Shown here piece after piece: positions 14,636 through 46,300 of a stretch of 64,000 bases of DNA. The position numbers and the translations under genes were made by a program. Under the pieces are notes generated by a model. The model searched no databases, was not told where the DNA came from, and saw only the letters and a program-made list of their open reading frames with translations. This DNA comes from Bacteroidota bacterium (GTDB taxonomy: Bacteria > Bacteroidota > Bacteroidia > AKYH767-A > 2013-40CM-41-45), in the NCBI GenBank assembly GCA_031385005.1, contig JANNBB010000026.1, forward strand, positions 151,478 to 215,477, read 5' to 3'. How positions within the stretch are numbered: the first letter of the stretch is position 1; every line of letters starts with the position of its first letter.

Positions 14636-15034
14636 TTAATGTGCGTGTAAAATTAAGTGACTAATATAATAATTTATCATCACCCGCCCTTCGACAGGCT
14701 CAGGGCTCGCTAATAAACCAGCTATTAAGCTCGCTAATAAACCAGCTATTAAGCTAGCTAATAAACTAGCTAATAAACTAGCTAATAAACCAGCTATTAA
14801 GCTAGCTAATAAACTAGCTAATAAGCTCAATAATAAGCTCGCTAAAAAATTATACAAATTATCAATTTCATCGGTACGAATATAAACCTGACCGTAATTT
14901 TCATTCGGTTCTAGCTCCTTAAATTCAAAAAAGTGAATCTGGATATTGTCCTTTTGTACCATAAGATAACCATCATTATCCTTATTTCCAAATTTTACAA
15001 TGAAGTAATTCAAAATTTGAATATACTCAAACAT
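14636..15034 (-). pseudogene. VOC-family gene fragment fused to an in-frame tandem-repeat tract ((LASLLASLIAGL)n)
   Basis: The N-terminal ~60 aa (GYLMVQKDNIQIHFFEFKELEPNENYGQVYIRTDEIDNLY) resemble only half of a VOC domain. The rest of the ORF is translation of a 12-nt tandem repeat. The ORF is too short for a complete VOC fold. Confidence 0.4.
14704..14846. repeat. Tandem repeat, 12-nt unit AGCTAATAAAC[CT] / AGCTATTAAGCT, ~12 copies
   Basis: Directly visible: ...gctcgctaataaaccagctattaagctcgctaataaaccagctattaagctagctaataaactagctaataaactagctaataaacc... Confidence 0.9.
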
Positions 15035-25165: not shown

Positions 25166-25627
25166 CTCTCGTCTAACCAAAAACCAATCTTAAGTGTCAA
25201 TGTCTTTATGGATGGATGAATACTGAAAACCGGTAAAACAGCAGAAAAATAGGATTGCTATATTCATCGTTTTGACCTTCATTATTCATTCTTACATGTC
25301 GATTTCAGAATAAATCTTATATGTCCTTATAGCATTTATTCCCTTTTCCGGTTTTTATACAATAGGGGAAAATCTTACAAAAAGTATGTTATTTTAAGGG
25401 AAAATGATAGTAATTGAACTGAGTTCAAAAGTGAAATTATTCGTAATTAAAGCTTCAAATAATTTTTATAAAAATATAATAATGAATGCTTTAAGATAAA
25501 TAAACAAACTGTTTATTAATTAGAAAAAACGTGCCGAATAGCTAACTTTTGTGTTGAGGATTTTCTGATAATTGCGGAATTCTAGGAAAAAAATCAATAT
25601 GAATTGGTGTTTTTTTTATAGAGTTTA

Positions 25628-25703
25628 CAGAGACAGAAACAGAGACAGAGACAGAGACAGAGACAGTGACAGTGACAGTGACAGTGACAGTGACAGAGAC
25701 AGT
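25628..25703. repeat. Hexanucleotide microsatellite (GAGACA)n/(GTGACA)n
   Basis: agagacagaaacagagacagagacagagacagagacagtgacagtgacagtgacagtgacagtgacagagacagtg. Confidence 0.9.
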
Positions 25704-25736
25704 GCACTGTGTACAGTTCTGTACACAGTGCACTGT
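25699..25736. repeat. Two copies of the 12-bp perfect palindrome ACAGTGCACTGT forming a 36-bp hairpin; a third copy lies at 25852..25863 between the tRNAs
   Basis: cagtgcactgtgtacag-ttc-tgtacacagtgcactg at 25700..25735. The core acagtgcactgt is present at 25699, 25725 and 25852. Confidence 0.85.
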
Positions 25737-25755
25737 ACATAGTAAACTGTCAAAG

Positions 25756-25839
25756 TGCCCGGGGAGAGACTCGAACTCTCAAGGAAATTACTCCAACGGC
25801 TTCTGAGACCGCAACGTTTGCCAGTTTCGCCACCCGGGC
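25756..25839 (-). tRNA. tRNA-Leu (anticodon CAG), type II, 84 nt, no encoded CCA
   Basis: Hand-folded reverse complement. Acceptor stem GCCCGGG/CCCGGGC; 3-bp D-stem with GG in the loop; anticodon stem GCGGT/GCCGT (two G.U pairs); loop CTCAGAA; long variable arm; T-stem GAGAG/CTCTC; T-loop TTCGAGT; discriminator A. Confidence 0.85.
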
Positions 25840-25883
25840 GGAAAAGAGTACACAGTGCACTGTATACAGTATACTCAAAAAAG

Positions 25884-25963
25884 TGCCCAGGACGAGATTC
25901 GAACTCGTACGGTTGCCCGCCACCCCCTCAAAGTGGTGCGTCTGCCAGTTTCGCCACCTGGGC
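25884..25963 (-). tRNA. tRNA-Leu (anticodon GAG), type II, 80 nt, no encoded CCA
   Basis: Reverse complement: acceptor stem GCCCAGG/CCTGGGC; anticodon stem CCACT/GGTGG; loop TTGAGGG; variable arm CGGGCAACCGT; T-stem ACGAG/CTCGT; T-loop TTCGAAT. Confidence 0.8.
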
Positions 25964-32884: not shown

Positions 32885-34312
32885 TTGAATCTTAGTCCTA
32901 TTTTTACCGCTGTGAGGACATTTAATAACGACGATACGATAGTTGCCCTGGCAACAGGAGGCGGAATTGCGGCTATTGCAGTAATCCGGCTGAGTGGAAA
33001 AGAATCATTTACTGTTGCCCAAAAGATTTTTTTTCCGGCAAAAGGGAAGAAGAAACCCATAGCAGACTATAAAACCCATACACTTCACTTTGGCTCCATA
33101 AAGGAAAACGACAGGTTAATTGACGAAGTTTTATTGTCAGTGATGAAAGGTCCGCACAGTTTTACGGGAGAAGATACGATTGAAATTTCCTGTCACGGAT
33201 CAACCTATGTTCAGCAGAAAATATTGGAGCTTTGTTTGGCCAATGGAGCACGGCTGGCAGATCCGGGAGAGTTTACGATGCGTGCTTTTCTGAATGGGAA
33301 GATGGACCTGACACAGGCAGAGGCAGTAGCAGATCTGATTGCTTCTGATTCGTCGGGTGCACACAGCTTGGCGATGAAACAAATGCGCGGAGGATTTTCA
33401 GAAGAGATAAAAAAATTAAGAAACGAACTCATTCACTTTGCCAGCTTGATAGAATTGGAACTCGACTTTGCAGAAGAAGATGTTGAATTTGCCAACAGAG
33501 GACATTTGCGTGAAACGATTGATAATATATTAAGAGTTATTGAAAAGCTGGTGCGCTCGTTTGAATTTGGCAATGTTATACGAAAAGGAATTCCGGTTGT
33601 GATAGCAGGCAGACCTAATGCAGGTAAATCAACACTACTGAATGCCTTGCTGAATGAGAACAGAGCCATTGTAAGTGAGACAGAAGGAACAACGCGAGAT
33701 ACGATTGAGGAAGAAATTACACTCGAAGGAGTCAAATTCCGCTTCATCGATACGGCCGGACTGAGAGAGACACATGATGCGATTGAGAAAATAGGTGTGT
33801 CAAAGACTTTTGAGAAGATGAATGAGAGTCCGGTTATACTATACATTTTCGATGTAATAGGAACAACAGGCAATCAATTGTATGCAGAACTTGAAAAACT
33901 AAAGAGCAACGTAACACCCGGCGTTCGAATAATTCCGGTTGGAAATAAAATCGATGCAGTTAGTATTTACAATGTTGAGCAGGCATATAGTATGATTAAG
34001 AATCCTATTTTCATTTCCGCCAGAGACAAAACCAATATAGACCAGCTTCGAAATCTTCTTTTATCGCTTTACTCGCATGGGAAAATCGAAGCCAATAATT
34101 CCATCGTTACCAGCGCAAGACATGTGGATGCATTGAAACATACGGCTGAATGCCTGCAGCGTGTATACAACGGACTTTTAGGAAATCTCACTAACGATTT
34201 CATTGCCGCCGACCTCCGTCATGCAATGAATTACCTCGGTGAAATTACCGGGGAAATATCTACGGATGATTTGTTGGAGAATATTTTTTCGAAGTTTTGT
34301 ATTGGAAAGTGA
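32885..34312 (+). CDS. mnmE: tRNA modification GTPase MnmE (TrmE)
   Basis: N-terminal DTIVALATGGGIAAIAVIRLSG; G-domain GRPNAGKSTLLNAL...DTAG; C-terminal CIGK. The ORF as drawn begins with TTG, and an in-frame GTG at 32915 is an alternative start. Confidence 0.9.
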   Translation: MNLSPIFTAVRTFNNDDTIVALATGGGIAAIAVIRLSGKESFTVAQKIFFPAKGKKKPIADYKTHTLHFGSIKENDRLIDEVLLSVMKGPHSFTGEDTIEISCHGSTYVQQKILELCLANGARLADPGEFTMRAFLNGKMDLTQAEAVADLIASDSSGAHSLAMKQMRGGFSEEIKKLRNELIHFASLIELELDFAEEDVEFANRGHLRETIDNILRVIEKLVRSFEFGNVIRKGIPVVIAGRPNAGKSTLLNALLNENRAIVSETEGTTRDTIEEEITLEGVKFRFIDTAGLRETHDAIEKIGVSKTFEKMNESPVILYIFDVIGTTGNQLYAELEKLKSNVTPGVRIIPVGNKIDAVSIYNVEQAYSMIKNPIFISARDKTNIDQLRNLLLSLYSHGKIEANNSIVTSARHVDALKHTAECLQRVYNGLLGNLTNDFIAADLRHAMNYLGEITGEISTDDLLENIFSKFCIGK

Positions 34313-34335
34313 TTCTATTTAAAATATAAATTACT

Positions 34336-34361
34336 ACTCCGCTTTTGTGCGGAGTTTTTTT
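34336..34361 (+). terminator. Rho-independent terminator after mnmE
   Basis: ctccgc-ttttgt-gcggag followed by TTTTTTTT. Confidence 0.75.
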
Positions 34362-34423
34362 TGTGTGTTAGTTTTTCGCATATAATGGGTTTTTATTGAG
34401 AGGATTTTATTGAATTTTTGTAC

Positions 34424-35060
34424 TTCGGCGGGCTCTACTTCGGCGGGCTCAGTAGGCGGGGCTTCGGCAAGCTCAGCGAACGGTGGTTATGAAAAGTTCT
34501 GTGGGCTTCGAATCCAACTGTGGCAGAGCTTGTTCCAACTCTGGCTGAGCTTGTTCCAACTGTGCTGAGCTTGATACAACTGTGGCTGAGCTTGATACAA
34601 CTGTGGCTGAGCTTGTCGAAGCCACGGTTGTAGCAAGCTCAACTGCCAGTTATCTCCACACAAAATAATTTCTAAAAACTTAACTCTTTTTAAAATGACA
34701 ACTAGACCAGAGAATAAGAAATTGGAATCTGAAATTAATTTGGATGATGAATTGAAATGGGGGGTTGATGATGGGGTGGATTGGTGGTTACAAACGTCGG
34801 CTTCGGCAAGCTCAGCCGCCGTTTGTAGGGAAACGGGCTGCTCATCTAACGTTTGTAGGGAAACGGCAAGCTCAGCCAACGTTTGTAGGGAATCGGGTTG
34901 CTCAGCCGACGTTTGTAGGGAGGAATGGGAGCAGCCTTTGGCTGACAACGAAGGGATAAAACCCACGTTGGCTGAGCCCTCGATAGCTGAAACTGTGTCG
35001 GCTGAACCCGTGTTGGCGAAGCCCTCGTTGGCTTCGACCAGCTCAGCCGATGAGGGCTCC
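34424..35060. repeat. Nest of at least four short tandem-repeat families sharing a GCTCAGC/GCTGAGC core
   Basis: Visible directly: (cttcggcgggctc)x3 at 34424..34480; a 22-nt unit ctggctgagcttgttccaactg x~5 at 34520..34620; a 30-nt unit gctcagccaacgtttgtagggaaacggcaa x5 at 34801..34950; a degenerate 15-nt unit ttggctgagccctcg x~5 at 34960..35060. Confidence 0.9.
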
Positions 35061-35105
35061 TTTCCGGAAATCGACATCAACTCTATCCCCTACTCCTATG
35101 GCTAC

Positions 35106-35378
35106 ATGTACATTTTAGAATGTGCCGATGGTAGTTTTTATACAGGCAGTACCAAATATATAAAGCGCCGATTGGCGCAGCATCAAAGTGGAGAAGGCGC
35201 AAATCATACGAGTAAATTTTTGCCTGGGAAATTAATTTATTATGAAAGTTTTGACAGAATTGATGATGCTTTTTACAGGGAAAAACAAGTGCAAGGATGG
35301 AGCCGCGCAAAGAAAATTGCATTAATAAAAAAAGACTTTGATCTGCTCAGATTACTTTCAAAAAACAGAATGAAATAA
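35106..35378 (+). CDS. GIY-YIG nuclease family small protein
   Basis: MYILECADGSFYTGSTKYIKRRLAQHQSGEGANHTSKFLPGKLIYYESFDRIDDAFYREKQVQGWSRAKKIALIKK matches the ~90-aa stand-alone GIY-YIG family. The ORF track extends it upstream to 34695 by translating repeat DNA. Confidence 0.6.
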   Translation: MYILECADGSFYTGSTKYIKRRLAQHQSGEGANHTSKFLPGKLIYYESFDRIDDAFYREKQVQGWSRAKKIALIKKDFDLLRLLSKNRMK

Positions 35379-35594
35379 TTTTTATTAGCAGAACAGGGAA
35401 AAATTTTTACGGATTTTAACAGATATTGACATACTAATATTTCTTGCGAAAACGAAATCCAATTTCTGTATCATCTTGAATAAAATATAATCTAAAAATT
35501 TGTTACGTCTGAAACGAAAAGCTTTTTCATCCAAACCATAAATTTAAAATATGGATTCGTTTCAATTGACTGATCTTAATCAGAAAAATAATTT

Positions 35595-37166
35595 CTAAGG
35601 TCTCGAAACAGCAATCTGCAATCGTGAATTATTTTCTACAAGAATGTAATCCGAATTCTCAATTAAATGATCGCCGTTAAGATCCTCCTTTAAATATCCG
35701 GTTGTAAACAATCTTGTTTTTGATTCGACCGAATTAAAATCAGAAATATTAAAAACTCCGTCTTGATTGATATCACCATTGTATAATGAGAAAGTTCCAT
35801 CGCCGGTAGCATAAAGTTGGTTTCCATAAGCTTTACCGATAGCATCAGTGAAAGAATAGCTAACCGACAAACTATTGAACAATACCGGTGATGTACTCCA
35901 CACCTCCAACGCACTTCGATGACGAACAACAAGGTAATAACTACCCAAAAAAATTGTAGGTGAAAAAACAAAGTTACCATATCCATTCACGTCTATTGTT
36001 CCCTTTACGCTTTGAACAAGTGCATGTTGTCCGGTGGTCGCATGAAGTTCCAAAGTAATCGAATCACATAACGTTGGATAATTGACTCCATTGATGACTG
36101 CCTGCATTACGCCCGTACTTTTATAATAACCTTGAATAAATACACGCAGATTTACTGTTACCGGAGATGTATTTCCACAAGTACCCGGAGCATTAAAAGG
36201 GGAGAACCATCTGACACAATCTTGTCTGTAGGCAGCCAGCTCTGTCAACTCCACATCCCGGCAAAGCCAGGCACTTACATGAGTACTATCGGAACATTTG
36301 GACATGATGGTAAATCCTTCAATGTTTTGGTTTCCTGTCGGATTAGAAACATAATACTCATTGTTCACAGTAAATTTCCGATCGCCACCTGTTACAATTG
36401 AGGAAGTAAGATTGGTGACTTCAATAAAATTACCCAAAGTATTGTGCAGTATATATAACAAACCGGTTGTCCTGTCAAATGAAAGTTCGCAACTTTCGCT
36501 TTTATTTGTTTTATATTTTCCAACATAAGCGAAATCGTTACTCAAGTTTGGATTGACATCGAATACCCATATATAGCCCTGATTCTGATGGGCGATAAAA
36601 AACAACCCTCCCAGCCCTTTAACTGAAGTATAAGGCAAACCGGAGGCCTGACTAATAAAACCAATGGCGGATAAAAAACTATCCGGCACGAAAGTTATTC
36701 CTTCCGGGCCAGTGTTTCCGGTGTTTGTCATGGGCGAGGGTGAAGCAACAATGTTCCATGATTTCGAAAGAGTGAGTGAAGAAAAATCAGCCGGATGTGT
36801 GTATTTTCTTATTTGATAATTGTCTTCATCGATTGTATAATATTCGTTAGCGCTTAAATTTACTTGTGTTATTCCTTCCGGACCTGCGGTATAAGATCGA
36901 TTAGCGATTTGAGCAAATGTATTCGTAGTAGTGTTTAACTGAAGGACACGTAATCCTCCATTACCATTTGAAACGTATAATCGCTTGGTAACTTCATTCC
37001 AAAATAGTCCGCTGATGTCTGTTAATCCGACGGGATCCATTACCGGAGTCAAGTTGACACCTGAAGTCCACGGAATGGAAGGCCATGCAGTTTGTGCTTG
37101 CACTTTAATGGTATATTGACAAAAGATACCAACAATAAATACTAGATATAATCTTTTCAATTGCAT
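35595..37166 (-). CDS. Secreted protein (523 aa): N-terminal beta-propeller/phytase-like region plus the shared non-canonical C-terminal module
   Basis: Signal peptide MQLKRLYLVFIVGIFCQYTIKVQAQ. Repeated GPEGIT motifs in the N-terminal part. The last ~188 aa (VNLRVFIQGYY...DINQDGVFNISDFNSVE...DLNGDHLIENSDYILVENNSRLQIAVSRP) are paralogous to the C-termini of both giants. The gene is divergent from the 5044-aa gene. Confidence 0.7.
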   Translation of the reverse strand: MQLKRLYLVFIVGIFCQYTIKVQAQTAWPSIPWTSGVNLTPVMDPVGLTDISGLFWNEVTKRLYVSNGNGGLRVLQLNTTTNTFAQIANRSYTAGPEGITQVNLSANEYYTIDEDNYQIRKYTHPADFSSLTLSKSWNIVASPSPMTNTGNTGPEGITFVPDSFLSAIGFISQASGLPYTSVKGLGGLFFIAHQNQGYIWVFDVNPNLSNDFAYVGKYKTNKSESCELSFDRTTGLLYILHNTLGNFIEVTNLTSSIVTGGDRKFTVNNEYYVSNPTGNQNIEGFTIMSKCSDSTHVSAWLCRDVELTELAAYRQDCVRWFSPFNAPGTCGNTSPVTVNLRVFIQGYYKSTGVMQAVINGVNYPTLCDSITLELHATTGQHALVQSVKGTIDVNGYGNFVFSPTIFLGSYYLVVRHRSALEVWSTSPVLFNSLSVSYSFTDAIGKAYGNQLYATGDGTFSLYNGDINQDGVFNISDFNSVESKTRLFTTGYLKEDLNGDHLIENSDYILVENNSRLQIAVSRP

Positions 37167-37394: not shown

Positions 37395-40300
37395 GTGTAT
37401 AGAAGATTTGACTTAAACATTACGAGCATTTTTATTTGGCAAATGTTTCTATTTGCTTTAATAAACGGTGCTTATGCTCAATCATCTTCCAACTATTCAT
37501 TCTCCACAAATAACAATGGATATCTAACAAGAGATTTATATTCGGATACGATTAACTTGAGCACAGGAGCTACACAACTAATCGGACCGGGCACGGATAG
37601 TGACATTTCTGATGAAACAACTATTGGTTTTGATTATTATTTTATGGGCACGAATATCAAAACATTTTCCTGCAATGAAAACGGAATAATTGAATTAGGC
37701 GCCCATACAATACCGGCTGATCTTTCGAAACCATCAACCTCGGCTATTCCAAATCTACTCGCACCGTTTGGTCAAAATCTACAAACAGGAATAGATGGCG
37801 AGGTTCGCTGTAAGTTATTCGGCACTTCACCCAACAGAGTTTTTGTAATTGAATATTTTAATATGATGATCAGCTTTGCCGGTGTTAATAATGCATTAGC
37901 AGGAGCAGCAACTTTTCAAGTACGTCTTTATGAAACAACAGGAATTTTGGAATACGTCTATGGACAGATGGCAACAAATAATAGCGTGCAAAATCTTATT
38001 CCTGTTGAAACAGGATGGATAGTCAATACTACTCCCAATAATTTTTTCGCTATAGACAGTTTATACAATACATCAACTATTGGAAATTGGCCAACATTTA
38101 TTGTCCCTCAGGGTTCAATTGTCAATCACCTAAATTCCATCTCTGAAGGGTCCAGAAGAATTTACCGATTTACTCCACCTCAGACGGCAGTTGTTGCGCC
38201 CACAGGATTATCTTTCTCGTCTGTGGCAGCGACTACAATGACAATAAACTGGACAGACAGCTCAACCAATGAGACGAATTTTAATATTTTAATTTCTTCC
38301 AATAATACCAATTTTTCCAAAATAAGCACCCTAAATTCATTCTCGACAGGAACGATAGGAACCGGATACAATTATACTGTAAAAGGCCTTTCTCCGAATA
38401 CAACTTATTATTTTCGCATTGCAGCAAATACTGAAGCGATTTCGTCTCCTTTGCTTGCCGGAACACGAGCGACCACAATACCAAAAGCTTATCATTGGAT
38501 AGGTACCGGAAATACTTTTTTCGAAGATCCTGCCAAGTGGAATCCAAATAGATTTACACCTGATCCAACAGACTCACTTTATTTTGATAATGGATTAAGT
38601 TCTACAATTAATTATGTTATTTCACAAAGCGTTTCGAAAATTGTAGTCAGTAATAATACACTCTTGAGAATGAATTCAGATGGAGGTGATACATTACTCA
38701 TAAGTGCAAAAATACCCAATGCATTTTTAATAGCCACCGGATCTTCAATTATCAATACAGCTCTTTTTCCTAATACCGTGACAATTTCATTTACAAACGG
38801 TAACGGCGCCACTGCAAGTATTTCCGGAACTCTTGAATTAGGAAAAGATAATAGCTACAATACAACTAATTGCATTACTTCAGTAAGTGGAACAATTGCT
38901 AATGCCGGAAATGTTTACGGTGCAACGAGAACCAATCTTATTTTTTTATCGACTGGTGTTTATAATCACAAATACAATGTTTCACCCGGAGTTGTTCCAA
39001 CAGCAACATGGAATATTGGCTCGCTTTGTTTAATAAGCGGATATACTGCCAATCCAAATATTTTGACAAGCTTGTCCGGACAACAATTTTACAACCTCAC
39101 CTGGGATTGTCCTGCACAACAGGTCTATGTAAATTTAGGAGGATTTTTTCCGGCCTCAGTTAATGGAACTTTTAAAATGGCAAATGGTTTACTACGACTT
39201 CAAACAAATGCTTCACCAACCTTAGTATTAAACAATTTCATTCAGACAGGAGGATCCTTCGATCTTAACAATGGAGGAGGAAGCTGCACGATGAAAGTGT
39301 CCGGTACATTCAATCAATCAGGCGGAATATTTGCTCCTTCTGCCGGGGGAGGATTGCCCATTCTCGAATTCAACGGAACAAGCGGTGTGCAACAAGTTAA
39401 CTTTTTCAACTCCGCTCCTACCGGTTCTTTGATTTATAAAATATCAAATCCAAACGGCATTAACCTGACAGGTACAGGAACACTTACAACCTATTTCAAT
39501 ATCAACATTAACTGTGGAGTCCGAATAGCAACAGTTGCAACTACTCCGATTAATACTTTCTTAAAATTAACTTACAATACTACTTCCACTACATTAACCT
39601 ATGAAGCACCTTCGGACATGACAATGACACCGACAGAATTTCCATTGGTAAGTGGTCCGGGAAATGTCTCAATCAATATGCCTGGAAGTGTCGCAAATAT
39701 GCCCTTCTCACGAGTAATTCCGGGCTCCTTGATAATGAGCGGAGGTGATATAAATTTAGGTGCAAACTCAATTACCCTTGGAACTTCATCAACTTTACCG
39801 GGAAACTTAAGTTGGGCTTCCGGCAATATTCGTGTTACGTCCGGTTCAATGACACGCTGGTTCAACACAACAGGATTACCAACTCAACCCGGATCACAAA
39901 TCGGGTTCTTCCCAATTGCGAATGGACTTGACAATCGTAATGTTTCTATTTATGGAACTTCACAGTTCATTACCGGTGGCTCCATTACTGTTTCGCATTC
40001 AAATGTTCCGGGAATTACAACAGGAATTTCCATTTCAGACCTGGGTTATATTATCCAGAGAAGAACAAATTCCTCCTGGACATTTGTAAATCGTGGAATA
40101 GTTAGCAATTTAAACTCTATTGGAATAAGAGTTACAGGAGCCAATCTGTTAAGCAGCAATTCACCGACACAACTTCGGTTAACACAAGCAAATTCGGTAA
40201 TCGGAGTAACTGCAAATGGAAGTGGCACAGCTCCTAATTTAAGAGCAGAAAGAATAAATATTCATTCGAATCAGTTATCTACAACATTATTTATTGGCGC

Positions 40301-43300
40301 ATCGGATACTCACCTTGATCCTTACTATGTAGCGACAACAAGCGGCAACTGGAGCAATCCTGCAATTTGGAGTTCAGGAATTGTCCCGGGATTAGCAAAC
40401 AATGCAATAATTGACTTGGGCACAGTAGTAACGACAGACGGAACAAATCAATGCAAAAGTCTAACGATTAATCCCGGCGGAACATTAAATGTCCCAAACA
40501 ATTCAATTTTAATTGATAATTCTCTAAGCAACAATGGAAATTTAAATGTTACAGGTGGTGATTTAATAATCAACGGAGGACAGCAAACTGCACAGGGATT
40601 CACAACAACGAGTGGAAGCAACACAGTCATATTATCCGGAACATTTACTATAGGCCCGCTTTTAGGAGGGAATAAACGATGGATACAATCTGGTGGCACG
40701 GCAACAATAGCAGGAGGAACAATTAATATAAACGGCAGTATATTAATTTCAGCAGGGAATTTTAATCAAACAAATGGCAATATTATAATCGACGGCAACA
40801 ATGGGACATCGGCTTCCGGAAGTGTTGCAAATGGGCTCCATTTGTTTCAGGTAACCGGGGGTACGCTTTCATGTAATGGTGGAACAATAATGATTGTTGA
40901 CCCTCCTTTTGTCGCATCAAAAAACAGTTTAGCAATTTCAATAAAAACTACAACAACAAGCACAAATGCCTTCACAGGAACACATACATTTATTTTTGGA
41001 AATGGAATTTCCAACACTGTTGGATATAATGTAACCGGTTTTTGCATGGAGACTTATTCATCTTCCTCAGGGGGCCGTGTTCCTCTAAAAAATGTCATTA
41101 TAAACTCCGGAAATGCATCAGGAAGATTTGTCAGAAACACATTAGTGAATACAAACGGTACACAAATTCAAGGAACATTAACTATTAATCCCAATTCAGA
41201 ATACAGGATTGCAACCAATACAATTAGTCGTGATTGTATCGGAGGCCACATAATCAATAATGGAACATTAACAGCAAGTGGGACACTTACGTTGGGAGGA
41301 GAAAATGGAATATATTCAATTTACAATCCACAAACGATTAGTGGAACCGGAGTTTTTCAAAATCAACAAATTTCGTCAACTGCAAATTTCTCCGGAATCA
41401 CTTTAAATAACCCGGGAGGAATTACATCAACTATAGGCAACATAAGCTATTCCGGTATATTGACATTCCAGAATGGAAATTTATCCTTTGGTAATAATAA
41501 AATTGAACAAATTGCCGGAGGAAGTATTGCCGGAAGTTTTGGCGCTTCCAGTCATATCAAAGGAAAGTTTCAACAACACACAAATACAGGTTCGTTTGTT
41601 CTTAATTTCCCAATTGGGGATAATCTAAACTACTCACCGGTTTCGATAATTGGAGCTGCCGGATCGGTTATTACACCCGGCGACATACTCGTTAGCACCT
41701 TTCCTTCAGAACATCCGTTGATTTCAACTGCAAACATAAATTCATCAAAAGACATTACACGACACTATACGCTTCAAAGTTTGAATGGTATTACATATAC
41801 TACGGGTTCACTAAGTGTAATACTTAATTGGACCAATTCTGATATCGATGCAGGAGCTAATACAACCAACTTCGTTCTTGGGAAAACAGAAAATGGCGGT
41901 TGGGTTTACCCTACAATAAAAAGCAAATCGGCAAACAACATTTATGTGACAGACGTTTCTTCACTTGGTGATTTTATTGTTGGAGAAAAATGTAACTTAA
42001 ACACCAACTTTAGTTATCCTAATTCCCCATATTGTAATAATGGAACTGTGACTCCACAATTTAATAATGGAGGAATTGCCGGTATTTTTACGGAACCATC
42101 AGGATTAGTATCAATTAATTCAAACACAGGAGTTATTAATCTTGCCTCCAGTACTCCCGGCACCTATATCATTACTAATACGATTGCTAACACCGGATGC
42201 CAACCGTCAAGCAGCACTGCCAACATAACCATCATTGGAAATTCAGTGGCTACTGTTAACATTACATCCTCTGCCAATCCAACATGCTCCGGCCTGCCTT
42301 TAACTTTTACTGCCGTTCCTGTAAATGGCGGTAACCCAACTTATCAGTGGCAATTAAACAATGTTAATGTCGGAACAAATAGTGCTGTATATACAAACTC
42401 CAATTTGACAAACGGAAGTATAATAAAATGTATAATGACGACAAGTCTGACTTGTGTTGCCGTTAACCAGGTTACTTCAAATATTCTAAGTATAACAGTT
42501 AACAGCACTCCGGCAGCACCAATTGTAACAATACTTGGATCCACAACAATTTCCTGCGGAGGGTTTGCAACACTTTTATCCAGTTATCAGGGAATTGGCA
42601 ATACATGGTCACCGGCAGGAATAATGAATGATACTTTAATTACAACAGCGGGAACTTTTTCAGTTACATATACAGACAGCAATAATTGCACTTCCTCTCC
42701 ATCCCTTCCTGTAATTATATCTCTTGTAAATCAAACAGGACCCTTGAATGGATCTTTTACAATAAACCCCGGCATAACCAGTTGCACCAATTACAATTCC
42801 CTTTACGCAATAATAAGTGAGTTAAATACAAGAGGTATAAATGGAACAGTAACAATTGATGTTCCATCAGGATATACTGAAACTGCACCATCGGGCGGAC
42901 TTCAAATTAAAATGTGTGGATTACCCGATTCAATACAGCCGAAAAACACGCAGTCAATTACTTTCAGAAAAACAGGAAGCGGAAGTAATCCATTACTTCT
43001 TGGAAACATTGGCAATTCTACTCAGGACGGAATCGTTAAAATTATTGGAACAGATTATATTACTTTTGATGGTATTGATGTCAATGATACAATGTCAACA
43101 GGTAATAGCGCATCACAAATCGAATGGGGATATGCATTGTTGAAATGTAATGGCACAAAGGGCTCCTCACATAATACCATTAAAAATTGCAACATATCTT
43201 TACAAAAATCAAATATATCGTCATCCGGGATTTATCTGAACAACCATACTGAACAATCGAATGTCCCTCTTATTTATTCAGGAAGTCAGGGATCAGATCA

Positions 43301-46300
43301 GGCATTCAGAAGCTCCTTTAATGTCTTCTCAGGAAATAGCATTTCCAATTCATATAGTTCTGTTAGTTTATCCGGATCCAATTTTTTCAATGACTCTTTA
43401 AACGAAATAGGAAAATCGGGTTCTTCACCCAATTTATTTTCGAATGTTGGTGGCGGAGTTTTTGCCACTTCAATTATTTCTGTAGCTAACCAACAACGGG
43501 TTAAAATAAATAATAACATTCTTAATGGAGGTGACGGTACGACCGGCGTTTTAAACGGAATCTTCGCCTACCCCAGCTCAGGATTTTCAGGAGATATTGT
43601 AAATAATTCCATTCGATTATCGAGTGCTTCTTCCGCAGTGAATGGAATAAATGGAATTAATATTTCAGACGGAACATTCGGTGATAGAATCAACATCACG
43701 GATAACATAATTGAAGATTGCAATTTTTCAATTGGCACAACCGCTGATTTTAATGCAATACTTTCATCATATAGCGGACCGGGAATTGTCGATATCAGCA
43801 GAAATAGCATTCGTAATAACAATCTGACTACCCCATCTTTCGGTTCTTTTACCGGCATCAATACAAGTGGAAGTCCTCAGACTTTGAATGTAGCTGCAAA
43901 TTCAATTACCGGAAACAACTTATCCGGCTTCGGAGTATTTAATGGTATCAATATTACTGACTCACTAAATCCGGTTATTGTTTCAGAAAATATAATTTCT
44001 TTCAATTACAAAACCGGACAAGCAGGAACCCTAAATGGAATATCAATTAATGCAGCGAATAGCCAAACAATTAATTCCAACATCATAAGTGAAAACGGAC
44101 TGCCTTTTTCAAGTGGGAACAACTCAGTTTTTATTTCAGGAATAACAGGAAATTTTGGAACAGGAAATGAAACAATTAACAGAAACAGGATTCGGAAATT
44201 ATTTATTTTAGGATCAAACAGCAGTCAGCAAGTAATTAACGGAATTCGTTATCATGACAATGCATCATCCCGCGAGATAAACAATAATTCAATTGACAGT
44301 CTATACTCTTTAAATAATTCAACAATAACAGGAATTTATTCAGGATTGGCACTAGGGACGGTAAATATTTCTGCAAATAAAATATTTGACGTTAATAGCG
44401 GTGGGGCATCTGCATCTGCTTGCGGCATACTTACGAATTATGCTCCGCAATTAGTTACAATATCAAATAATATTATTGGCCGACTTTATACTCCAACTTC
44501 TACAAATTCAAATGCGATAAGAGGAATGGACATCAGCGGAGCGACAAGCATACGCATTTATTATAATACAATTAATCTTGATGCAGTAGGCAACAATGTA
44601 TCTTTCGGAAGTTCCGGACTTTTTGTATTGTCAACTTCGCTACTAGATCTGCGTAATAATATTATCATTAATAATTCACTTCCAGGAGGATCTGCGGGCG
44701 CTGACGGAGTAACAGCAGCATTCCGCAGAAATAATTCAACACTTACAAATTACTCAAACTCTTCCAATAATAACTTATTTTATGCAGGAATTCCCGGTCA
44801 AAATAATGTAATTTATTGTGAAGGATTTGCAAACCCGGTTGTTAATGTAGCATCATCAATTCTGGATTACAAAGCAATATCTACACTTAGTCCGAGGGAT
44901 TCGGCATCCGTAAGCGAAAATGTATCCTTCACTTCATTGTCCGGAGCTGACTCGCTTTTTTTACACATCAACAACAATGGATTGACCTATGTTGAAGGAA
45001 ATGCCAAACCAATTAACGGATTTACCACAGATTATGATACTGAATTGCGAAATGTTATCAATCCGGATATCGGAGCTGATGAAGGAGGTTTTACCGGAAT
45101 CAGACCATCGATAGCCGTTGTAATTCCGAATCCCGGTACAGGGCAATGTTCTGCGGTTGCTCATACGATAAATGCAAACGTTATTCCCGGTTTAAATCCA
45201 ATAACTTCGGTGATTCTATCGTATTCTTTCGGGAGCGCCACACCCATCAATTTAAGCATGACTCATCTTTCCGGAAACAACTGGAGCGCAACAATTCCTT
45301 CGGCAAGTCCTTCCAATGCTGTAGTTAACTGGACAATTAACGCAACAGATGGAACTTATTCGCAAGTAGTATCCGGAAACTACCAAGATGAAATATATTC
45401 TCAGTATTCATTAAATATAAATGCAAGTACAACACCGGGAAACGTATGTTCATCGGGAACAACTCAACTGCTTGCTTCGGTAATTGGTACGGCAACAACT
45501 TCCAATACATATTGCCTACCCGCTCAAAACAATTCCGGAAACTGTATTTCAAATGTTGAGTTCAACACGTTAAACAATTCTTCTGGATCCTGTTTATCCA
45601 ACACTTATACATTGTTTCCTCAATCGGGATCAACTACTACGACTGTGGTATCCGGACAATCTTATCTTTTACTAACCACTAACGTTACCAATTCAATGAC
45701 ATGGGTATGGATCGATTTTAATGGGAATGGAATTTTTGAAACGGCTGAAGGGAAATTAATTTATGGTTCAGCAAGTTCCGGATTTACAACAATTTCCATC
45801 CCTGCATCAGCGGTAATTGGAGCAACAAGAATGCGAATACGTTCAACTATACCAAATGGAATTTTAAATTCAGCAAGCTCCTGTACTTCGATTACAACAG
45901 GCGAAACAGAAGATTATCTGATAAATATTATTCCTCCATTAACATATTTATGGTCGCCATCAAACGGATTATCGGATTCGTCGATTGCCAATCCTCTAGC
46001 GACAGTAAATGCGACATCTACATATTTTGTTTCTGCTTATGATAAATATGGATGTACACTTCCTTCATTAACAACTTCAATAAATATTCAAGTATTAACC
46101 CCGCCTACACCACCGATTGCAAACAATTCTATTCAATGCGGCACCGGAATCCCGCCATGTTCTGTAACCGGCACAGGCGTAAAACGCTGGTATTTGAACG
46201 ATTCTATTGTTAGTCCTCTATCCGGAGAAAGTGGAAATTTTTTAGTTGCTTATTCAATTAACACTACAAAGCATTTCTGGGTTTCTGTGTTTGATGGAAG

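What the first reader, a model, noticed from the sequence alone, without database searches (positions are those of the whole stretch)
34424..35105. A nest of four different short tandem-repeat families with a self-complementary GCTCAGC/GCTGAGC core lies upstream of a GIY-YIG nuclease gene
Within ~650 bp, between the mnmE terminator and the GIY-YIG gene, four repeat families sit back-to-back:
- a 13-15-nt repeat (cttcggcgggctc) x3;
- a 22-nt repeat (ctggctgagcttgttccaactg) x~5;
- a 30-nt repeat (gctcagccaacgtttgtagggaaacggcaa) x5;
- a degenerate 15-nt repeat (ttggctgagccctcg) x~5.

GCTCAGC and GCTGAGC are reverse complements. The same core is therefore used in both orientations across families. 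The string cttcggcaagctcagc recurs at 34462 and 34801.

Both strands are open for ~200 codons, but those ORFs translate to low-complexity repeats (VCRETGCS..., SLQT...) and are probably artefacts. The repeats have no spacers, so this is not CRISPR.

Possible roles: a hyper-variable contingency locus, a protein-binding array, or a recombination substrate associated with the GIY-YIG element.
Basis: seen in the sequence. Interest (0 to 1): 0.55.

Follow-up and report, generated by a model that had tools for sequence, protein, structure and literature searches.

The report
Hairpin repeats beside an Ssn-like nuclease gene
The "four repeat families" are all expanded copies of one small DNA hairpin that accompanies a particular small GIY-YIG nuclease gene in many bacterial phyla, most like the recently described Ssn single-strand nucleases and their cognate repeats but with a different nuclease branch and a different hairpin.

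Summary
The repeats are real, non-random and differ between close strains. All four families derive from one stem-loop: a variable stem around a conserved 13-nt core, TTCGRC-NN-GCTCA, present on both strands. That is why GCTCAGC and GCTGAGC recur.

The window has three long hairpins with different stems and the same loop. The 21-nt and 30-nt arrays are tandem copies of the 3' half of the core plus the 3' stem arm.

The same core, with a 2- or 3-nt centre, lies within 800 nt of 78 of 82 related GIY-YIG genes from more than ten phyla. It is about 50-fold enriched there. The stem pairs and one inner pair covary. It also occurs as many solo copies, including one at 14690 in this window.

The closest known system is Ssn/NTS (Chenal 2025): single-domain GIY-YIG ssDNA nucleases flanked by cognate hairpins. 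The window's enzyme is 32% identical to SsnA, sits in a sister clade, and its hairpin does not match the published SRM pattern.

The 227-aa ORF probably reads through the repeats. The catalytic domain is under strong purifying selection, while the unique N-terminal stretch looks neutral.

Verdict: a new variant of a known kind. The nuclease-hairpin interaction and the proposed cut site are inferred, not shown.

The parts
34336..34362 (+). Intrinsic terminator of mnmE (context; left edge of the repeat region).
   Evidence: 7-bp stem with 5 GC pairs followed by a T-run. It is identical or nearly so in all lineages.
34424..34475 (+). Three head-to-tail + strand copies of the core: TTCGGCGGGCTCt at 34424, TTCGGCGGGCTCA at 34439 and TTCGGCAAGCTCA at 34463.
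   Evidence: This array differs in copy number and spacing in L004 (24-nt period, 4 copies) and L230 (about 24-27-nt period, 5-6 copies).
34513..34616 (-). 21-nt x5 array. Each unit, read on the - strand, is CAAGCTCA + GCCACAG + TTGGAA/TTGTAT. That is the 3' half of the core, the 3' stem arm and a spacer. Copy 3 has a 1-nt deletion.
   Evidence: classified '3only'.
34598..34630 (-). Hairpin 1. The stem is CAACTGTGGC / GCCACGGTTG around a complete core (TTCGACAAGCTCA on the - strand, 34608-34620). The outer stem extends to 34583-34648.
   Evidence: ssDNA fold -9.3 kcal/mol, z -3.8; the extended fold is -24.7 kcal/mol, z -5.9, with 0 of 200 shuffles as good. Core located.
34695..35378 (+). Longest ORF of the nuclease gene (227 aa). 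It comprises a unique N-terminal stretch of about 35 aa, repeat-encoded residues up to about aa 120, then the GIY-YIG domain. An alternative start is the ATG at 35106 (M of GYMYIL).
   Evidence: only P0001 and P0002 cover the N-terminus. dN/dS is 0.65 for the first 108 nt against 0.049 for the domain.
34789..34827 (+). Hairpin 2. The stem is TACAAACGTCGGC / GCCGCCGTTTGTA around a complete core, TTCGGCAAGCTCA (34802-34814).
   Evidence: Inverted repeats I12 and I14; core; the fold of 34785-34925 has z -4.2.
34804..34921 (+). 30-nt x3.7 array. Each unit is the 3' half of the core (GCTCA), the 3' stem arm (GCCRNCGTTTGTA) and a filler (GGGAAACGGSNN). The relative L004 has one copy.
   Evidence: 90-nt indel; '3only'.
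34960..35028 (-). Degenerate 15-nt units carrying - strand half-cores (ACGTTGGCTGAGC and similar). The first unit is a perfect inverted copy of GCTCAGCCAACGT from the 30-nt array.
   Evidence: Family D4 and inverted repeat I16. L004 is 60 nt shorter here.
35022..35056 (+). Hairpin 3. The stem is CCCTCGTTGGC / GCCGATGAGGG (two G-T pairs) around a complete core, TTCGACCAGCTCA (35033-35045). It lies about 45 nt before the catalytic domain.
   Evidence: the fold of 34955-35065 has z -4.95.
35100..35315 (+). GIY-YIG catalytic domain. All family-invariant residues are present.
   Evidence: PF01541, E 5e-17. Invariant columns of alignment A2. 32% identity to N. gonorrhoeae SsnA, E 1e-13. dN/dS 0.049.
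35040..35600 (.). Block with about 6-fold deeper divergence than the flanking genome. It holds the nuclease domain plus the 3' spacer. The right edge is sharp, at the stop codon of the convergent 523-aa gene.
   Evidence: dS is 1.15 here, against 0.205 for mnmE and 0.195 for the 523-aa gene. Alignment A3.
14686..14849 (+). Second, solo copy of the hairpin in the window: gccc-TTCGACAGGCTCA-gggc, 14686-14706. A 12/24-nt tandem array (14705-14849) follows directly on its 3' side, and no GIY-YIG gene is nearby. It extends the 3' end of the - strand ORF 14636-15034.

Best explanation
The region is the cognate hairpin-repeat cluster of a small, single-domain GIY-YIG nuclease that is related to, and organised like, the Ssn ssDNA nucleases.

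The basic unit is a DNA stem-loop. Its stem is free to vary. Its loop is the conserved core TTCGRC-NN-GCTCA. The first T and last A can pair, and one inner pair covaries.

Shown here:
- The window holds six full cores on the two strands. Three of them sit in long hairpins with unrelated stems.
- The 21-nt and 30-nt arrays, and more loosely the degenerate 15-nt units, are tandem copies of the core's 3' half plus the 3' stem arm.
- The same core flanks relatives of this nuclease in many phyla.
- Copy number differs between close lineages.
- The nuclease domain is under strong purifying selection.

Inferred by analogy with SsnA/NTS: the nuclease binds these hairpins when the DNA is single-stranded and nicks it.

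Inferred from array anatomy: the nick falls inside the loop, 5' of (N)NGCTCA on the TTCGAC strand. Strand-displacement repair from that nick would duplicate the segment on the 3' side. This would produce arrays that start in the loop and always run 3' of the core.

The long 227-aa ORF is most likely a by-product. The core has no stop codon in five of six frames and the unit lengths are multiples of 3.

The cellular role is unknown. The most plausible candidates are control of incoming or recombining ssDNA, or self-maintenance of a domesticated REP/RAYT-like pair.
For: Motif and structure
- One core underlies all the families.
- In 195 unique instances of the 14-nt form, the four stem pairs next to the core form standard pairs in 98, 89, 90 and 76% of cases, each with 3-4 pair types.
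- On 68 instances, 84.3% of cells are paired against 68.4% in shuffles (0 of 500 shuffles reach it). The covariation score is 0.418 against 0.175. Slid controls reach at most 37%.
- The inner pair covaries: C..G 268, G..C 109, T..A 22 near GIY genes. Each non-complementary combination occurs 4 times or fewer.
- Window hairpins fold with z from -3.8 to -5.9.

Association with the gene
- The 14-nt form gives 72 hits in the 500 nt upstream and 87 in the 500 nt downstream of the gene. Other 500-nt bins hold 0-8.
- 78 of 82 loci carry the generalised core within 800 nt.
- 56 of 76 loci have it on both sides. The nearest upstream copy is usually on the - strand (median -50). The nearest downstream copy is usually on the + strand (median +42).
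- Relatives are 64-76% identical across Bacteroidota, Cyanobacteria, Verrucomicrobia, Chloroflexi, Nitrospira, Leptospira, Planctomycetes and others, including isolates.

Precedent
- SsnA is a 94-aa GIY-YIG enzyme that binds its hairpin only as ssDNA and cuts beside it. 71% of its homologues are flanked by cognate repeats (PMC11893778).
- The window domain aligns to N. gonorrhoeae SsnA at 32% identity over 78 aa, E 1e-13, hhalign probability 96.7%.

Arrays
- Of 46 short-period arrays beside GIY genes, 21 carry only the 3' half of the core, 9 the full core and 3 (doubtful) only the 5' half. Shuffles give 4.8 and 2.5 for 3'-only and 5'-only.
- In every array I inspected (window, L030, L062, L078), the array runs 3' of a full core.

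Strain variation
-.

Coding test
- Domain dN/dS is 0.049; the N-terminal unique part is 0.65.
- In homologues the same DNA core is read in different frames and on both strands (GFDKLS, ASTSSA, LRQAQP, PELVEG, LSLSK). The resulting tails can be N- or C-terminal.
Against: - No biochemical data exist for this clade.
- The window enzyme scores higher against UPF0213 proteins (BH0048, 61 bits) than against SsnA (45 bits). No repeat partner was found in the literature searched for UPF0213.
- The published SRM search pattern finds nothing near these genes. The hairpin architecture also differs: here the conserved sequence is in the loop, whereas in NTS it lies 5' of a long stem.
- The window locus is atypical for its own family. 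It has no copy downstream of the gene, and the proximal upstream copy is on the + strand.
- Most copies of the exact window-type hairpin in metagenomes have no GIY gene in the stretch fetched. The gene-repeat link is therefore statistical, as it is for REP/RAYT.
- Simple counts of half-sites do not show the 3'-half bias. Only the tandem arrays do.
- The nick-site inference is indirect.
- The first 15-nt array consists of full cores, so not every array fits the half-core rule.
Confidence: 0.68

Rival explanations
1. The repeats encode a genuine low-complexity N-terminal extension of the nuclease (Cys-rich decapeptides VCRETxxSxN, then a P/A/E-rich linker) with a function at the protein level. 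The DNA symmetry would be secondary.
For: The ORF is open from 34695 to the domain. Gene callers annotate 227-aa and 176-aa products. The ORF stays open in the relative despite 90-nt and 60-nt indels. No ATG, GTG or TTG lies just upstream of GYMYIL except the M inside that strand. There are weak keratin-B2 and Cys-repeat profile hits.
Against: dN/dS is 0.65 in the unique N-terminal part against 0.049 in the domain. The extension has no homologues beyond two near relatives. In other family members the same DNA core is translated in other frames, on the other strand, at the C-terminus, or lies outside any ORF. The upstream 21-nt and 15-nt arrays and the solo copy at 14690 are built from the same core without belonging to this ORF. 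The in-frame indels equal whole repeat units, whose lengths are multiples of 3. Several homologues are called from the same internal M (P0052, P0061, P0084, P0117).
Confidence: 0.1
2. The hairpins are an autonomous REP/MITE-like dispersed repeat with no functional link to the nuclease. They merely accumulate at this gene, for example because it is a permissive intergenic site or because both ride on the same mobile cassette.
For: 116 of 120 metagenome stretches with the exact hairpin lack a clade-B GIY gene. 31 solo copies lie more than 1 kb from any GIY gene in the fetched flanks. One solo copy is present in this window.
Against: Enrichment at the gene is about 50-fold, is seen in 78 of 82 loci, and holds across more than ten phyla in many different genomic contexts. 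Placement is stereotyped: a - strand copy at about -50 and a + strand copy at about +42. The same many-solo, few-at-gene pattern holds for NTS/SsnA, where the interaction has been shown experimentally (PMC11893778).
Confidence: 0.12
3. The gene plus its inverted hairpins is an active insertion-sequence-like or homing element. The hairpins are its terminal inverted repeats and the GIY-YIG protein is its transposase or homing nuclease. The arrays would be scars of repeated insertion.
For: Inverted copies bracket the gene. Identity is 64-76% across phyla. The window cassette is 6-fold more diverged than its flanks, which indicates replacement. L034 carries a remnant of a second gene 3' end upstream of the intact gene. 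12 of 76 loci sit directly after hsdM. Some homologues are fused to helicase, HsdS or DUF5131 ORFs. The Ssn authors note the IS-like layout.
Against: In Flavobacteriaceae the gene has stayed behind HMG-CoA reductase in 7 genomes (Winogradskyella, Bizionia, Aestuariivivens, Lutibacter and three uncultured Flavobacteriaceae). Nuclease identity tracks host-gene identity there (98/97, 84/81, 75/70-74%), which indicates vertical descent. Only 1 of 82 loci has a second copy within 10 kb. No close relative is found in phage or viral collections. No target-site duplication or precise empty site was found; L231 lacks both gene and motif but has different neighbours. Tandem arrays made of half cores are not what repeated whole-element insertion would leave.
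Confidence: 0.15
4. The locus is a phase-variable contingency switch. Slippage in the arrays turns expression of the nuclease, or of an upstream peptide, on and off.
For: Copy number differs between closely related lineages. One 21-nt unit has a 1-nt deletion that creates a stop in the small ORF 34410-34568.
Against: Unit lengths of 15, 21 and 30 nt, and the observed in-ORF indels of 90 and 60 nt, preserve the frame, so they cannot toggle translation. No promoter element could be placed within an array. The same motif behaves identically downstream of the gene and at solo sites in other genomes.
Confidence: 0.04

Closest known systems
Ssn nucleases and their NTS/SRM hairpin repeats (SsnA of Neisseria meningitidis; Chenal et al., Nat Commun 2025, PMC11893778)
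   Same: Both have a single-domain GIY-YIG protein of about 90-95 aa. The proteins are homologous: 32% identity, E 1e-13, and they share the REKQxxxWxRxxK helix. In both, the gene is flanked on both sides by short hairpin-forming repeats that also occur as many solo copies in the genome. Both are spread across phyla. The IS-like repeat-gene-repeat layout and elevated divergence next to the repeats are seen in both.
   Different: The window enzyme belongs to a sister clade. It scores 76-97 bits within that clade, 38-63 bits to the SsnA clade and 52-74 bits to UPF0213. The hairpin does not fit the published SRM pattern: 0 hits against 9 in the Neisseria control. Its logic is inverted, with the conserved sequence in a 13-14-nt loop and a free stem; in NTS a conserved GTCA lies 5' of a long conserved stem with a small loop. 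Half-core tandem arrays and read-through ORFs are not described for Ssn. No enzymology exists for this clade.
REP sequences / REPINs and RAYT (TnpA-REP, IS200/IS605-like) transposases
   Same: In both, a nuclease gene is bracketed by inverted copies of a short palindromic repeat that is otherwise dispersed, often as inverted pairs. The repeat and the enzyme appear to co-evolve, and the arrangement is largely vertical and 'domesticated'.
   Different: The enzyme here is a GIY-YIG nuclease, not an HUH/Y1 transposase. The repeat sequence and structure are unrelated.
UPF0213 / YhbQ-type GIY-YIG proteins (PDB 1zg2 BH0048, 1ywl EF2693)
   Same: These are the closest solved structures (E 2.7e-19). 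Size and fold class match, and they share the G-x-GA-x-x-T segment.
   Different: The literature I searched describes no repeat partner for UPF0213, and I did not examine their flanks. Their C-terminal helix lacks the REKQxQGW motif that the window clade shares with SsnA.
Free-standing GIY-YIG homing endonucleases (I-TevI, Seg proteins)
   Same: They share the GIY-YIG catalytic fold and an association with gene mobility.
   Different: Homing enzymes carry separate DNA-binding domains, cut dsDNA at intron-less or gene-less alleles, and are not flanked by arrays of their own recognition hairpins. The window protein is a bare catalytic domain.

Membership tests
Ssn nuclease family (as defined in PMC11893778) | Single-domain GIY-YIG protein of about 94 aa | tested here: met
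   Pfam finds only PF01541, at aa 136-207. The conserved family core is about 90 aa. The remainder of the 227-aa ORF is repeat-encoded and not conserved.
Ssn nuclease family (as defined in PMC11893778) | blastp hit to Nm SsnA with E below 1e-10 against a proteome and at least 75% query cover; top CDD hit cd10448 | tested here: inconclusive
   Tested against the N. gonorrhoeae orthologue recovered from L085. Identity is 32% over 78 of 94 aa (83% cover), with E 1e-13 for a single pairwise comparison. Scaled to a proteome-sized search this is my estimate of roughly 1e-9, which is borderline. The clade scores higher against UPF0213 than against SsnA.
Ssn nuclease family (as defined in PMC11893778) | SRM element (HGTCWYN(0-2)YYVSBRHN(0-5)WNVSBRGN(0-2)RNCYNB) in the flanks | tested here: not met
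   There are 0 matches within 3 kb of the gene in the window plus 80 family loci, and 1 match in 1.2 Mb overall. The same regular expression finds 9 NTS copies in the 4.2-kb Neisseria control locus.
Ssn nuclease family (as defined in PMC11893778) | Gene flanked by its own hairpin-forming repeat on the 5' and 3' sides | tested here: met
   For the clade, 78 of 82 loci have the repeat within 800 nt and 56 of 76 have it on both sides. For the window itself the repeats are upstream only.
Ssn nuclease family (as defined in PMC11893778) | Binds the hairpin only as ssDNA and cleaves at a defined site; no activity on dsDNA or RNA | not testable with these tools
   This needs purified protein and oligonucleotide substrates.
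REP / RAYT (REPtron) | IS200/IS605-type HUH (Y1) transposase flanked by REP | tested here: not met
   The only domain is GIY-YIG. No Y1 transposase ORF is present in 31.5-38.5 kb.
CRISPR array | Identical direct repeats separated by unique spacers of similar length; cas genes or a leader nearby | tested here: not met
The units are head-to-tail with no spacers, and both orientations occur. Rfam finds nothing here.
Phase-variable contingency locus (simple sequence repeat) | Repeat-number changes that shift the reading frame or the promoter spacing | tested here: not met
   Unit lengths are 15, 21 and 30 nt. The in-ORF differences between lineages are 90 and 60 nt. No promoter could be placed.
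Structured RNA family (Rfam) | Match to a curated covariance model | tested here: not met
   There is no hit at gathering thresholds in the window. Only generic hairpin (miRNA-precursor) matches far below threshold appear at 34574-34653. The occurrence of the motif on both strands argues for a DNA-level element.

The most novel reading that the evidence does not exclude
This GIY-YIG clade and the TTCGRC-N2-3-GCTCA loop-hairpin form a second, undescribed nuclease-repeat partnership parallel to Ssn/NTS. It would be present from Bacteroidota and Cyanobacteria to Alphaproteobacteria. It would be the enzyme partner of the very common 'FDKLS / LRQAQ / LSLSK / PELVEG'-coding palindromic repeats that clutter GC-rich genomes. 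The enzyme would nick inside the loop, and repair from that nick would generate the tandem arrays and the repeat-encoded tails on neighbouring ORFs.
Probability: 0.4. Interest if true: 0.7.

Novelty: new variant of a known kind. Interest (0 to 1): 0.5.

Why it matters
If the inferred pairing holds, three things follow.

1. It would widen the recently discovered Ssn principle (a tiny nuclease plus its own ssDNA hairpin) to a second enzyme branch with a differently built recognition element. That would add a new specificity class for ssDNA tools.

2. It would give an enzymatic partner, and a mechanism of origin, to a very abundant class of palindromic repeats and to the low-complexity tails they add to annotated proteins in many phyla. 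This is useful for genome annotation.

3. The array anatomy gives a concrete, testable prediction of the cleavage site. It also offers a model for how nicking at a hairpin creates hypervariable tandem arrays.

For this window alone the practical message is modest. The region is a nuclease-associated repeat cluster, not a new kind of locus.

Tried and rejected
- Rfam, at gathering thresholds on the whole window and by E-value on 34300-35500, gave only sub-threshold generic hairpin matches.
- PADLOC gave no hit and NCBIfam gave no family hit for the nuclease domain, only two weak sub-cutoff matches to Cys-repeat models in the repeat-encoded part.
- Literature searches for the core sequences, for GIY-YIG with REP, and for COG2827 found nothing relevant. 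The Ssn paper surfaced only. It has no supplementary files held, so its list of 29 curated genomes could not be checked.
- The published SRM pattern does not describe these hairpins.
- A simple count of isolated 5' versus 3' half-sites near the genes showed no asymmetry: the excess is 1.35 against 1.12 per kb. The 3'-half rule holds for tandem arrays only.
- Promoter scans placed nothing. There is no sigma-70-like site on the + strand in 34250-35650 and no Bacteroidetes TAnnTTTG on the + strand in 34300-35100.
- The search for a precise empty site failed. Orthologues of the 523-aa gene at 58-74% identity sit in other contexts without the gene or the motif. The 75%-identical mnmE locus has different downstream genes. 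Two contigs end exactly at the end of mnmE, which is suggestive of an assembly break but uninformative.
- tRNA-fragment and T-arm readings of TTCGA..TCC were considered and dropped, because the flanking bases do not form a T-stem.
- I considered an RNA-level element. This is unlikely because both orientations are used and because DNA-type 2-nt loops closed by a 5'-C..G-3' pair are implied.
- Structure prediction was not run. The N-terminal extension has no alignment depth, so a low-confidence result would have said nothing.
Full report
**1. The observation**

The region 34421-35060 really is a dense nest of repeats. Tandem Repeats Finder reports a perfect 15-nt doublet (34421-34450), a 21-nt x5 array (34513-34616), a 30-nt x3.7 array (34810-34921) and a weak 15-nt array. 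The repeat finder extends the last one to four degenerate copies and lists 22 inverted-repeat pairs.

All ten GCTCAGC/GCTGAGC heptamers of the 64-kb window fall in 34471-35047, where about 2.7 would be expected for the whole window. The long units occur nowhere else in the window.

Minor corrections: the '22-nt' period is 21 with one 1-nt deletion, and the 30-nt unit has about 4 copies, not 5. The region is also G+C-rich (47-59%) against AT-rich surroundings.

**2. Local anatomy**

mnmE (32885-34312) ends in a clean terminator at 34336-34362. The longest ORF of the nuclease gene runs from 34695 to 35378 (227 aa). Pfam places the GIY-YIG domain at aa 136-207. The 30-nt and 15-nt arrays therefore lie in frame inside this ORF. 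The 15-nt doublet and the 21-nt array lie upstream of it.

Reduced to essentials, every family contains one 13-nt core, TTCGRC-NN-GCTCA, or its 3' half. Complete cores sit at 34424, 34439, 34463, 34802 and 35033 on the + strand and at 34608 on the - strand.

Three of them are the loops of long hairpins with unrelated stems:
- CAACTGTGGC / GCCACGGTTG
- TACAAACGTCGGC / GCCGCCGTTTGTA
- CCCTCGTTGGC / GCCGATGAGGG

These fold as ssDNA far better than shuffles do, with z from -3.8 to -5.9. The 21-nt units (read on the - strand) and the 30-nt units (+ strand) are tandem copies of '...GCTCA + 3' stem arm + filler'.

**3. Strain comparison**

The locus was recovered from relatives.
- A 99% identical assembly has the same structure.
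- A second lineage (L002-L004; mnmE 95.6% nt identity) has one 30-nt unit instead of four. It has 60 nt less in the 15-nt array and a different first array with a 24-nt period.
- A third lineage (L230; MnmE 96% aa identity) has yet another first array, with 5-6 cores at a period of about 24-27 nt.

So the locus is hypervariable in copy number. Indels inside the ORF are multiples of 3, but they are also whole repeat units.

**4. Is the repeat part coding?**

Between the window and L004:

| Segment | dS | dN/dS |
|---|---|---|
| GIY-YIG domain | 1.15 | 0.049 |
| First 108 nt of the ORF | 0.14 | 0.65 (2.5 synonymous, 7.5 non-synonymous changes) |
| mnmE | 0.205 | 0.025 |
| 523-aa gene | 0.195 | 0.10 |

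The domain is under strong purifying selection. The unique N-terminal stretch is indistinguishable from neutral.

Only the two near relatives share the N-terminus. All other homologues match the last 40% of the query only.

In those homologues the low-complexity tails are mostly C-terminal and sometimes N-terminal. They spell GFDKLS, VASTSSATG, LRQAQP, PELVEG and LSLSK, which are frames of one DNA sequence read on both strands. The repeats are therefore a DNA-level feature that ORFs happen to run through. I regard the 227-aa product as possible but probably incidental. The ATG at 35106 is the likely functional start, although this is unproven.

**5. The cassette has its own history**

Synonymous divergence of the nuclease domain is about six times that of the two flanking genes (table above). 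The 3' spacer (35379-35594) is almost unalignable. Identity returns abruptly to about 98% at the stop codon of the convergent gene, and on the left the boundary lies in the repeats.

The block of about 35040-35600 was either replaced by a diverged allele or evolves much faster than its surroundings. The Ssn paper reports lower identity for genes next to dRS3/NTS repeats in Neisseria.

**6. The family**

A scan of 185,579 species genomes with the domain alignment found at least 589 relatives. The best 80 are 64-76% identical to the window protein. They come from Bacteroidota, Cyanobacteria, Verrucomicrobia, Chloroflexi, Nitrospira, Leptospira, Planctomycetes, Desulfobulbia, Campylobacterota and others, isolates included.

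- The 14-nt form of the core is about 50-fold enriched in the 500 nt on either side of the gene.
- With the generalised core TTCGR-X-N(2-3)-X'-CTCA, 78 of 82 loci have at least one copy within 800 nt, and 56 of 76 have copies on both sides.
- Placement is stereotyped: a - strand copy at a median of -50 and a + strand copy at a median of +42.
- Flanking stems covary. The X/X' positions are almost always C..G, G..C or T..A.
- Conservation of the loop with free variation of the stem, use of both strands, and implied 2-nt loops closed by 5'-C..G-3' all point to recognition as folded single-stranded DNA.

**7. Context and mobility**

Immediately upstream genes are diverse. HsdM of type I restriction-modification systems accounts for 12 of 76 and HMG-CoA reductase for 7 of 76. 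The latter set comprises Flavobacteriaceae in which nuclease identity tracks host-gene identity, so the gene has been inherited vertically at one site for a long time.

No close relative is found in phage or viral collections. Only one locus has a second copy within 10 kb. This looks like a resident, 'domesticated' gene that is occasionally exchanged, not like a rampant transposon.

**8. Solo copies**

The hairpin is also dispersed.
- 31 copies lie more than 1 kb from any GIY gene in the fetched flanks, where about 0.1 would be expected (my estimate).
- Of 120 metagenome stretches holding the exact window-type hairpin GGCTTCGRCAAGCTCAGCC, only 4 encode a clade relative. Most come from genomes of about 65% G+C, where the hairpin occurs in inverted pairs.
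- The window itself has a solo copy, gccc-TTCGACAGGCTCA-gggc at 14686-14706. It is followed at once by a 12/24-nt tandem array (14705-14849) that lengthens a neighbouring ORF.

**9. How arrays arise (inference)**

Among 46 short-period arrays next to family genes, 21 contain only the 3' half of the core, with 5 more on inspection. Nine contain a full core and 3 doubtful ones contain only the 5' half. Shuffles give 4.8 and 2.5 for 3'-only and 5'-only.

In the cases I examined (window, L030, L062, L078), the array starts inside the loop of a full hairpin and runs 3' on the motif strand. Several begin exactly after TT, as in TT|CGAC....

A nick in the loop followed by strand-displacement synthesis and re-ligation of the flap would give exactly this result. 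I therefore predict that the cut lies in the loop, 5' of (N)NGCTCA. This is a hypothesis. A plain count of isolated half-sites does not show the bias.

**10. Comparison with what is known**

Chenal et al. (2025; PMC11893778) describe the Ssn family. Its members are about 94-aa GIY-YIG proteins (CDD cd10448) that bind a cognate hairpin (NTS in Neisseria; SRM in general) only as ssDNA and cut beside it. 71% of the genes are flanked by the repeat and 42% on both sides. There are hundreds of solo copies per genome, an effect on natural transformation, and an explicit analogy to REP/RAYT. That paper does not mention Bacteroidota, Cyanobacteria or tandem arrays.

I recovered the N. gonorrhoeae SsnA orthologue and its NTS copies from a chromosome filed among the plasmids.
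- The window domain is 32% identical to it (E 1e-13; hhalign probability 96.7%).
- It clusters with Sphingomonas and Methylobacterium proteins at 76-97 bits. The Sphingomonas gene is flanked by this same core.
- The window clade scores 38-63 bits to the SsnA clade and 52-74 bits to UPF0213 structures.
- The published SRM pattern finds 9 NTS copies in the Neisseria control but none near the 81 family genes.

The system therefore works like an Ssn/SRM pair as far as sequence can show. It lies outside, or at the edge of, the family as published, and it uses a differently built hairpin.

**11. Verdict**

It is not four independent repeat families, not CRISPR, and not a demonstrated contingency switch. 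It is a new variant of a kind described in 2025. The enzyme-hairpin interaction, the cut site and the cellular role remain inferences.

Noticed in passing
window 14636-15034 (- strand ORF) with 14686-14849: A solo copy of the same hairpin core (gccc-TTCGACAGGCTCA-gggc) is followed by a 12/24-nt tandem array (GCTAGCTAATAAAC...). Together they form the 3' end of a 132-aa ORF. Its N-terminus looks to me (not tested against any profile) like a glyoxalase/bleomycin-resistance (VOC) fragment. Its tail reads LLASLLASLIAG...SPEPVEGRV. This is an example of the repeat adding a low-complexity tail to a host gene.
   Followed up: partly
window 25627-25758 and 25840-25880: A hexanucleotide array (ACAGAG/ACAGTG, about 12.7 copies) is followed by copies of a palindromic 14-nt unit (ACAGTGCACTGTAC). 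They lie directly beside two tRNA-Leu genes (25755-25839 and 25883-25963, - strand). The palindrome recurs between the two tRNAs.
   Followed up: no
window 37395-52529: A 5044-aa ORF has fn3, GEVED, Ig-like and laminin-G hits in its orthologue. It is divergent from the 523-aa gene, whose more distant homologues carry the T9SS sorting domain PF18962. It is probably a giant surface protein.
   Followed up: no
L085 (NZ_CP119140.1) and H46 (NZ_CP119142.1): Two 2.17-Mb Neisseria gonorrhoeae records filed as 'plasmids' in PLSDB are evidently whole chromosomes. This accident supplied the SsnA/NTS control locus.
   Followed up: yes
L232 and L233 (contig ends at the mnmE stop); L230 (contig ends inside the repeats): Three independent assemblies of related genomes break at or just after the end of mnmE. 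L230 breaks inside the repeat region. For L232 and L233 a repeat after mnmE is only a guess, since no motif was seen in the sequence held.
   Followed up: no
L034 upstream of the gene (about -340 to -100); L033 upstream (about -520 to -40): The segment upstream of the intact nuclease gene duplicates the gene's own 3' end plus hairpin pair in L034. In L033 it duplicates the 5' leader plus hairpins several times. This suggests unit duplications larger than the short arrays, or remnants of earlier gene copies.
   Followed up: partly
L032, L033, L040, L072, L078, L082 and P0027: The nuclease gene with its hairpins often sits between hsdM and what looks by eye like hsdS of type I restriction-modification operons; only the upstream HsdM was profile-tested (HsdM upstream in 12 of 76 loci). 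P0027 is annotated as a GIY-YIG-HsdS fusion. Other homologues are fused to helicase/ResIII or DUF5131 ORFs.
   Followed up: partly
L090 (Planktothrix plasmid) and L091 (Spirosoma plasmid): GIY-YIG genes of the SsnA-like clade are flanked here by GTCAT-type hairpins (for example ctGTCATTCTGAG and ttGTCATCCTTCCTGTCGTCAGGATGACaa). The published SRM regular expression did not match these, so that pattern also misses some members of its own clade. The L090 gene lies between an MmeI-type enzyme and DISARM drmA.
   Followed up: no
L086 (Methylobacterium bullatum): A clade relative is flanked by an expanded version of the core. The centre is replaced by a GC-rich mini-hairpin (TTCGAGG-CCCGCTACCGCGGG-CACCTCAGG). 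From memory, this resembles the very common palindromic repeats of Rhizobiales and Methylobacterium genomes.
   Followed up: no
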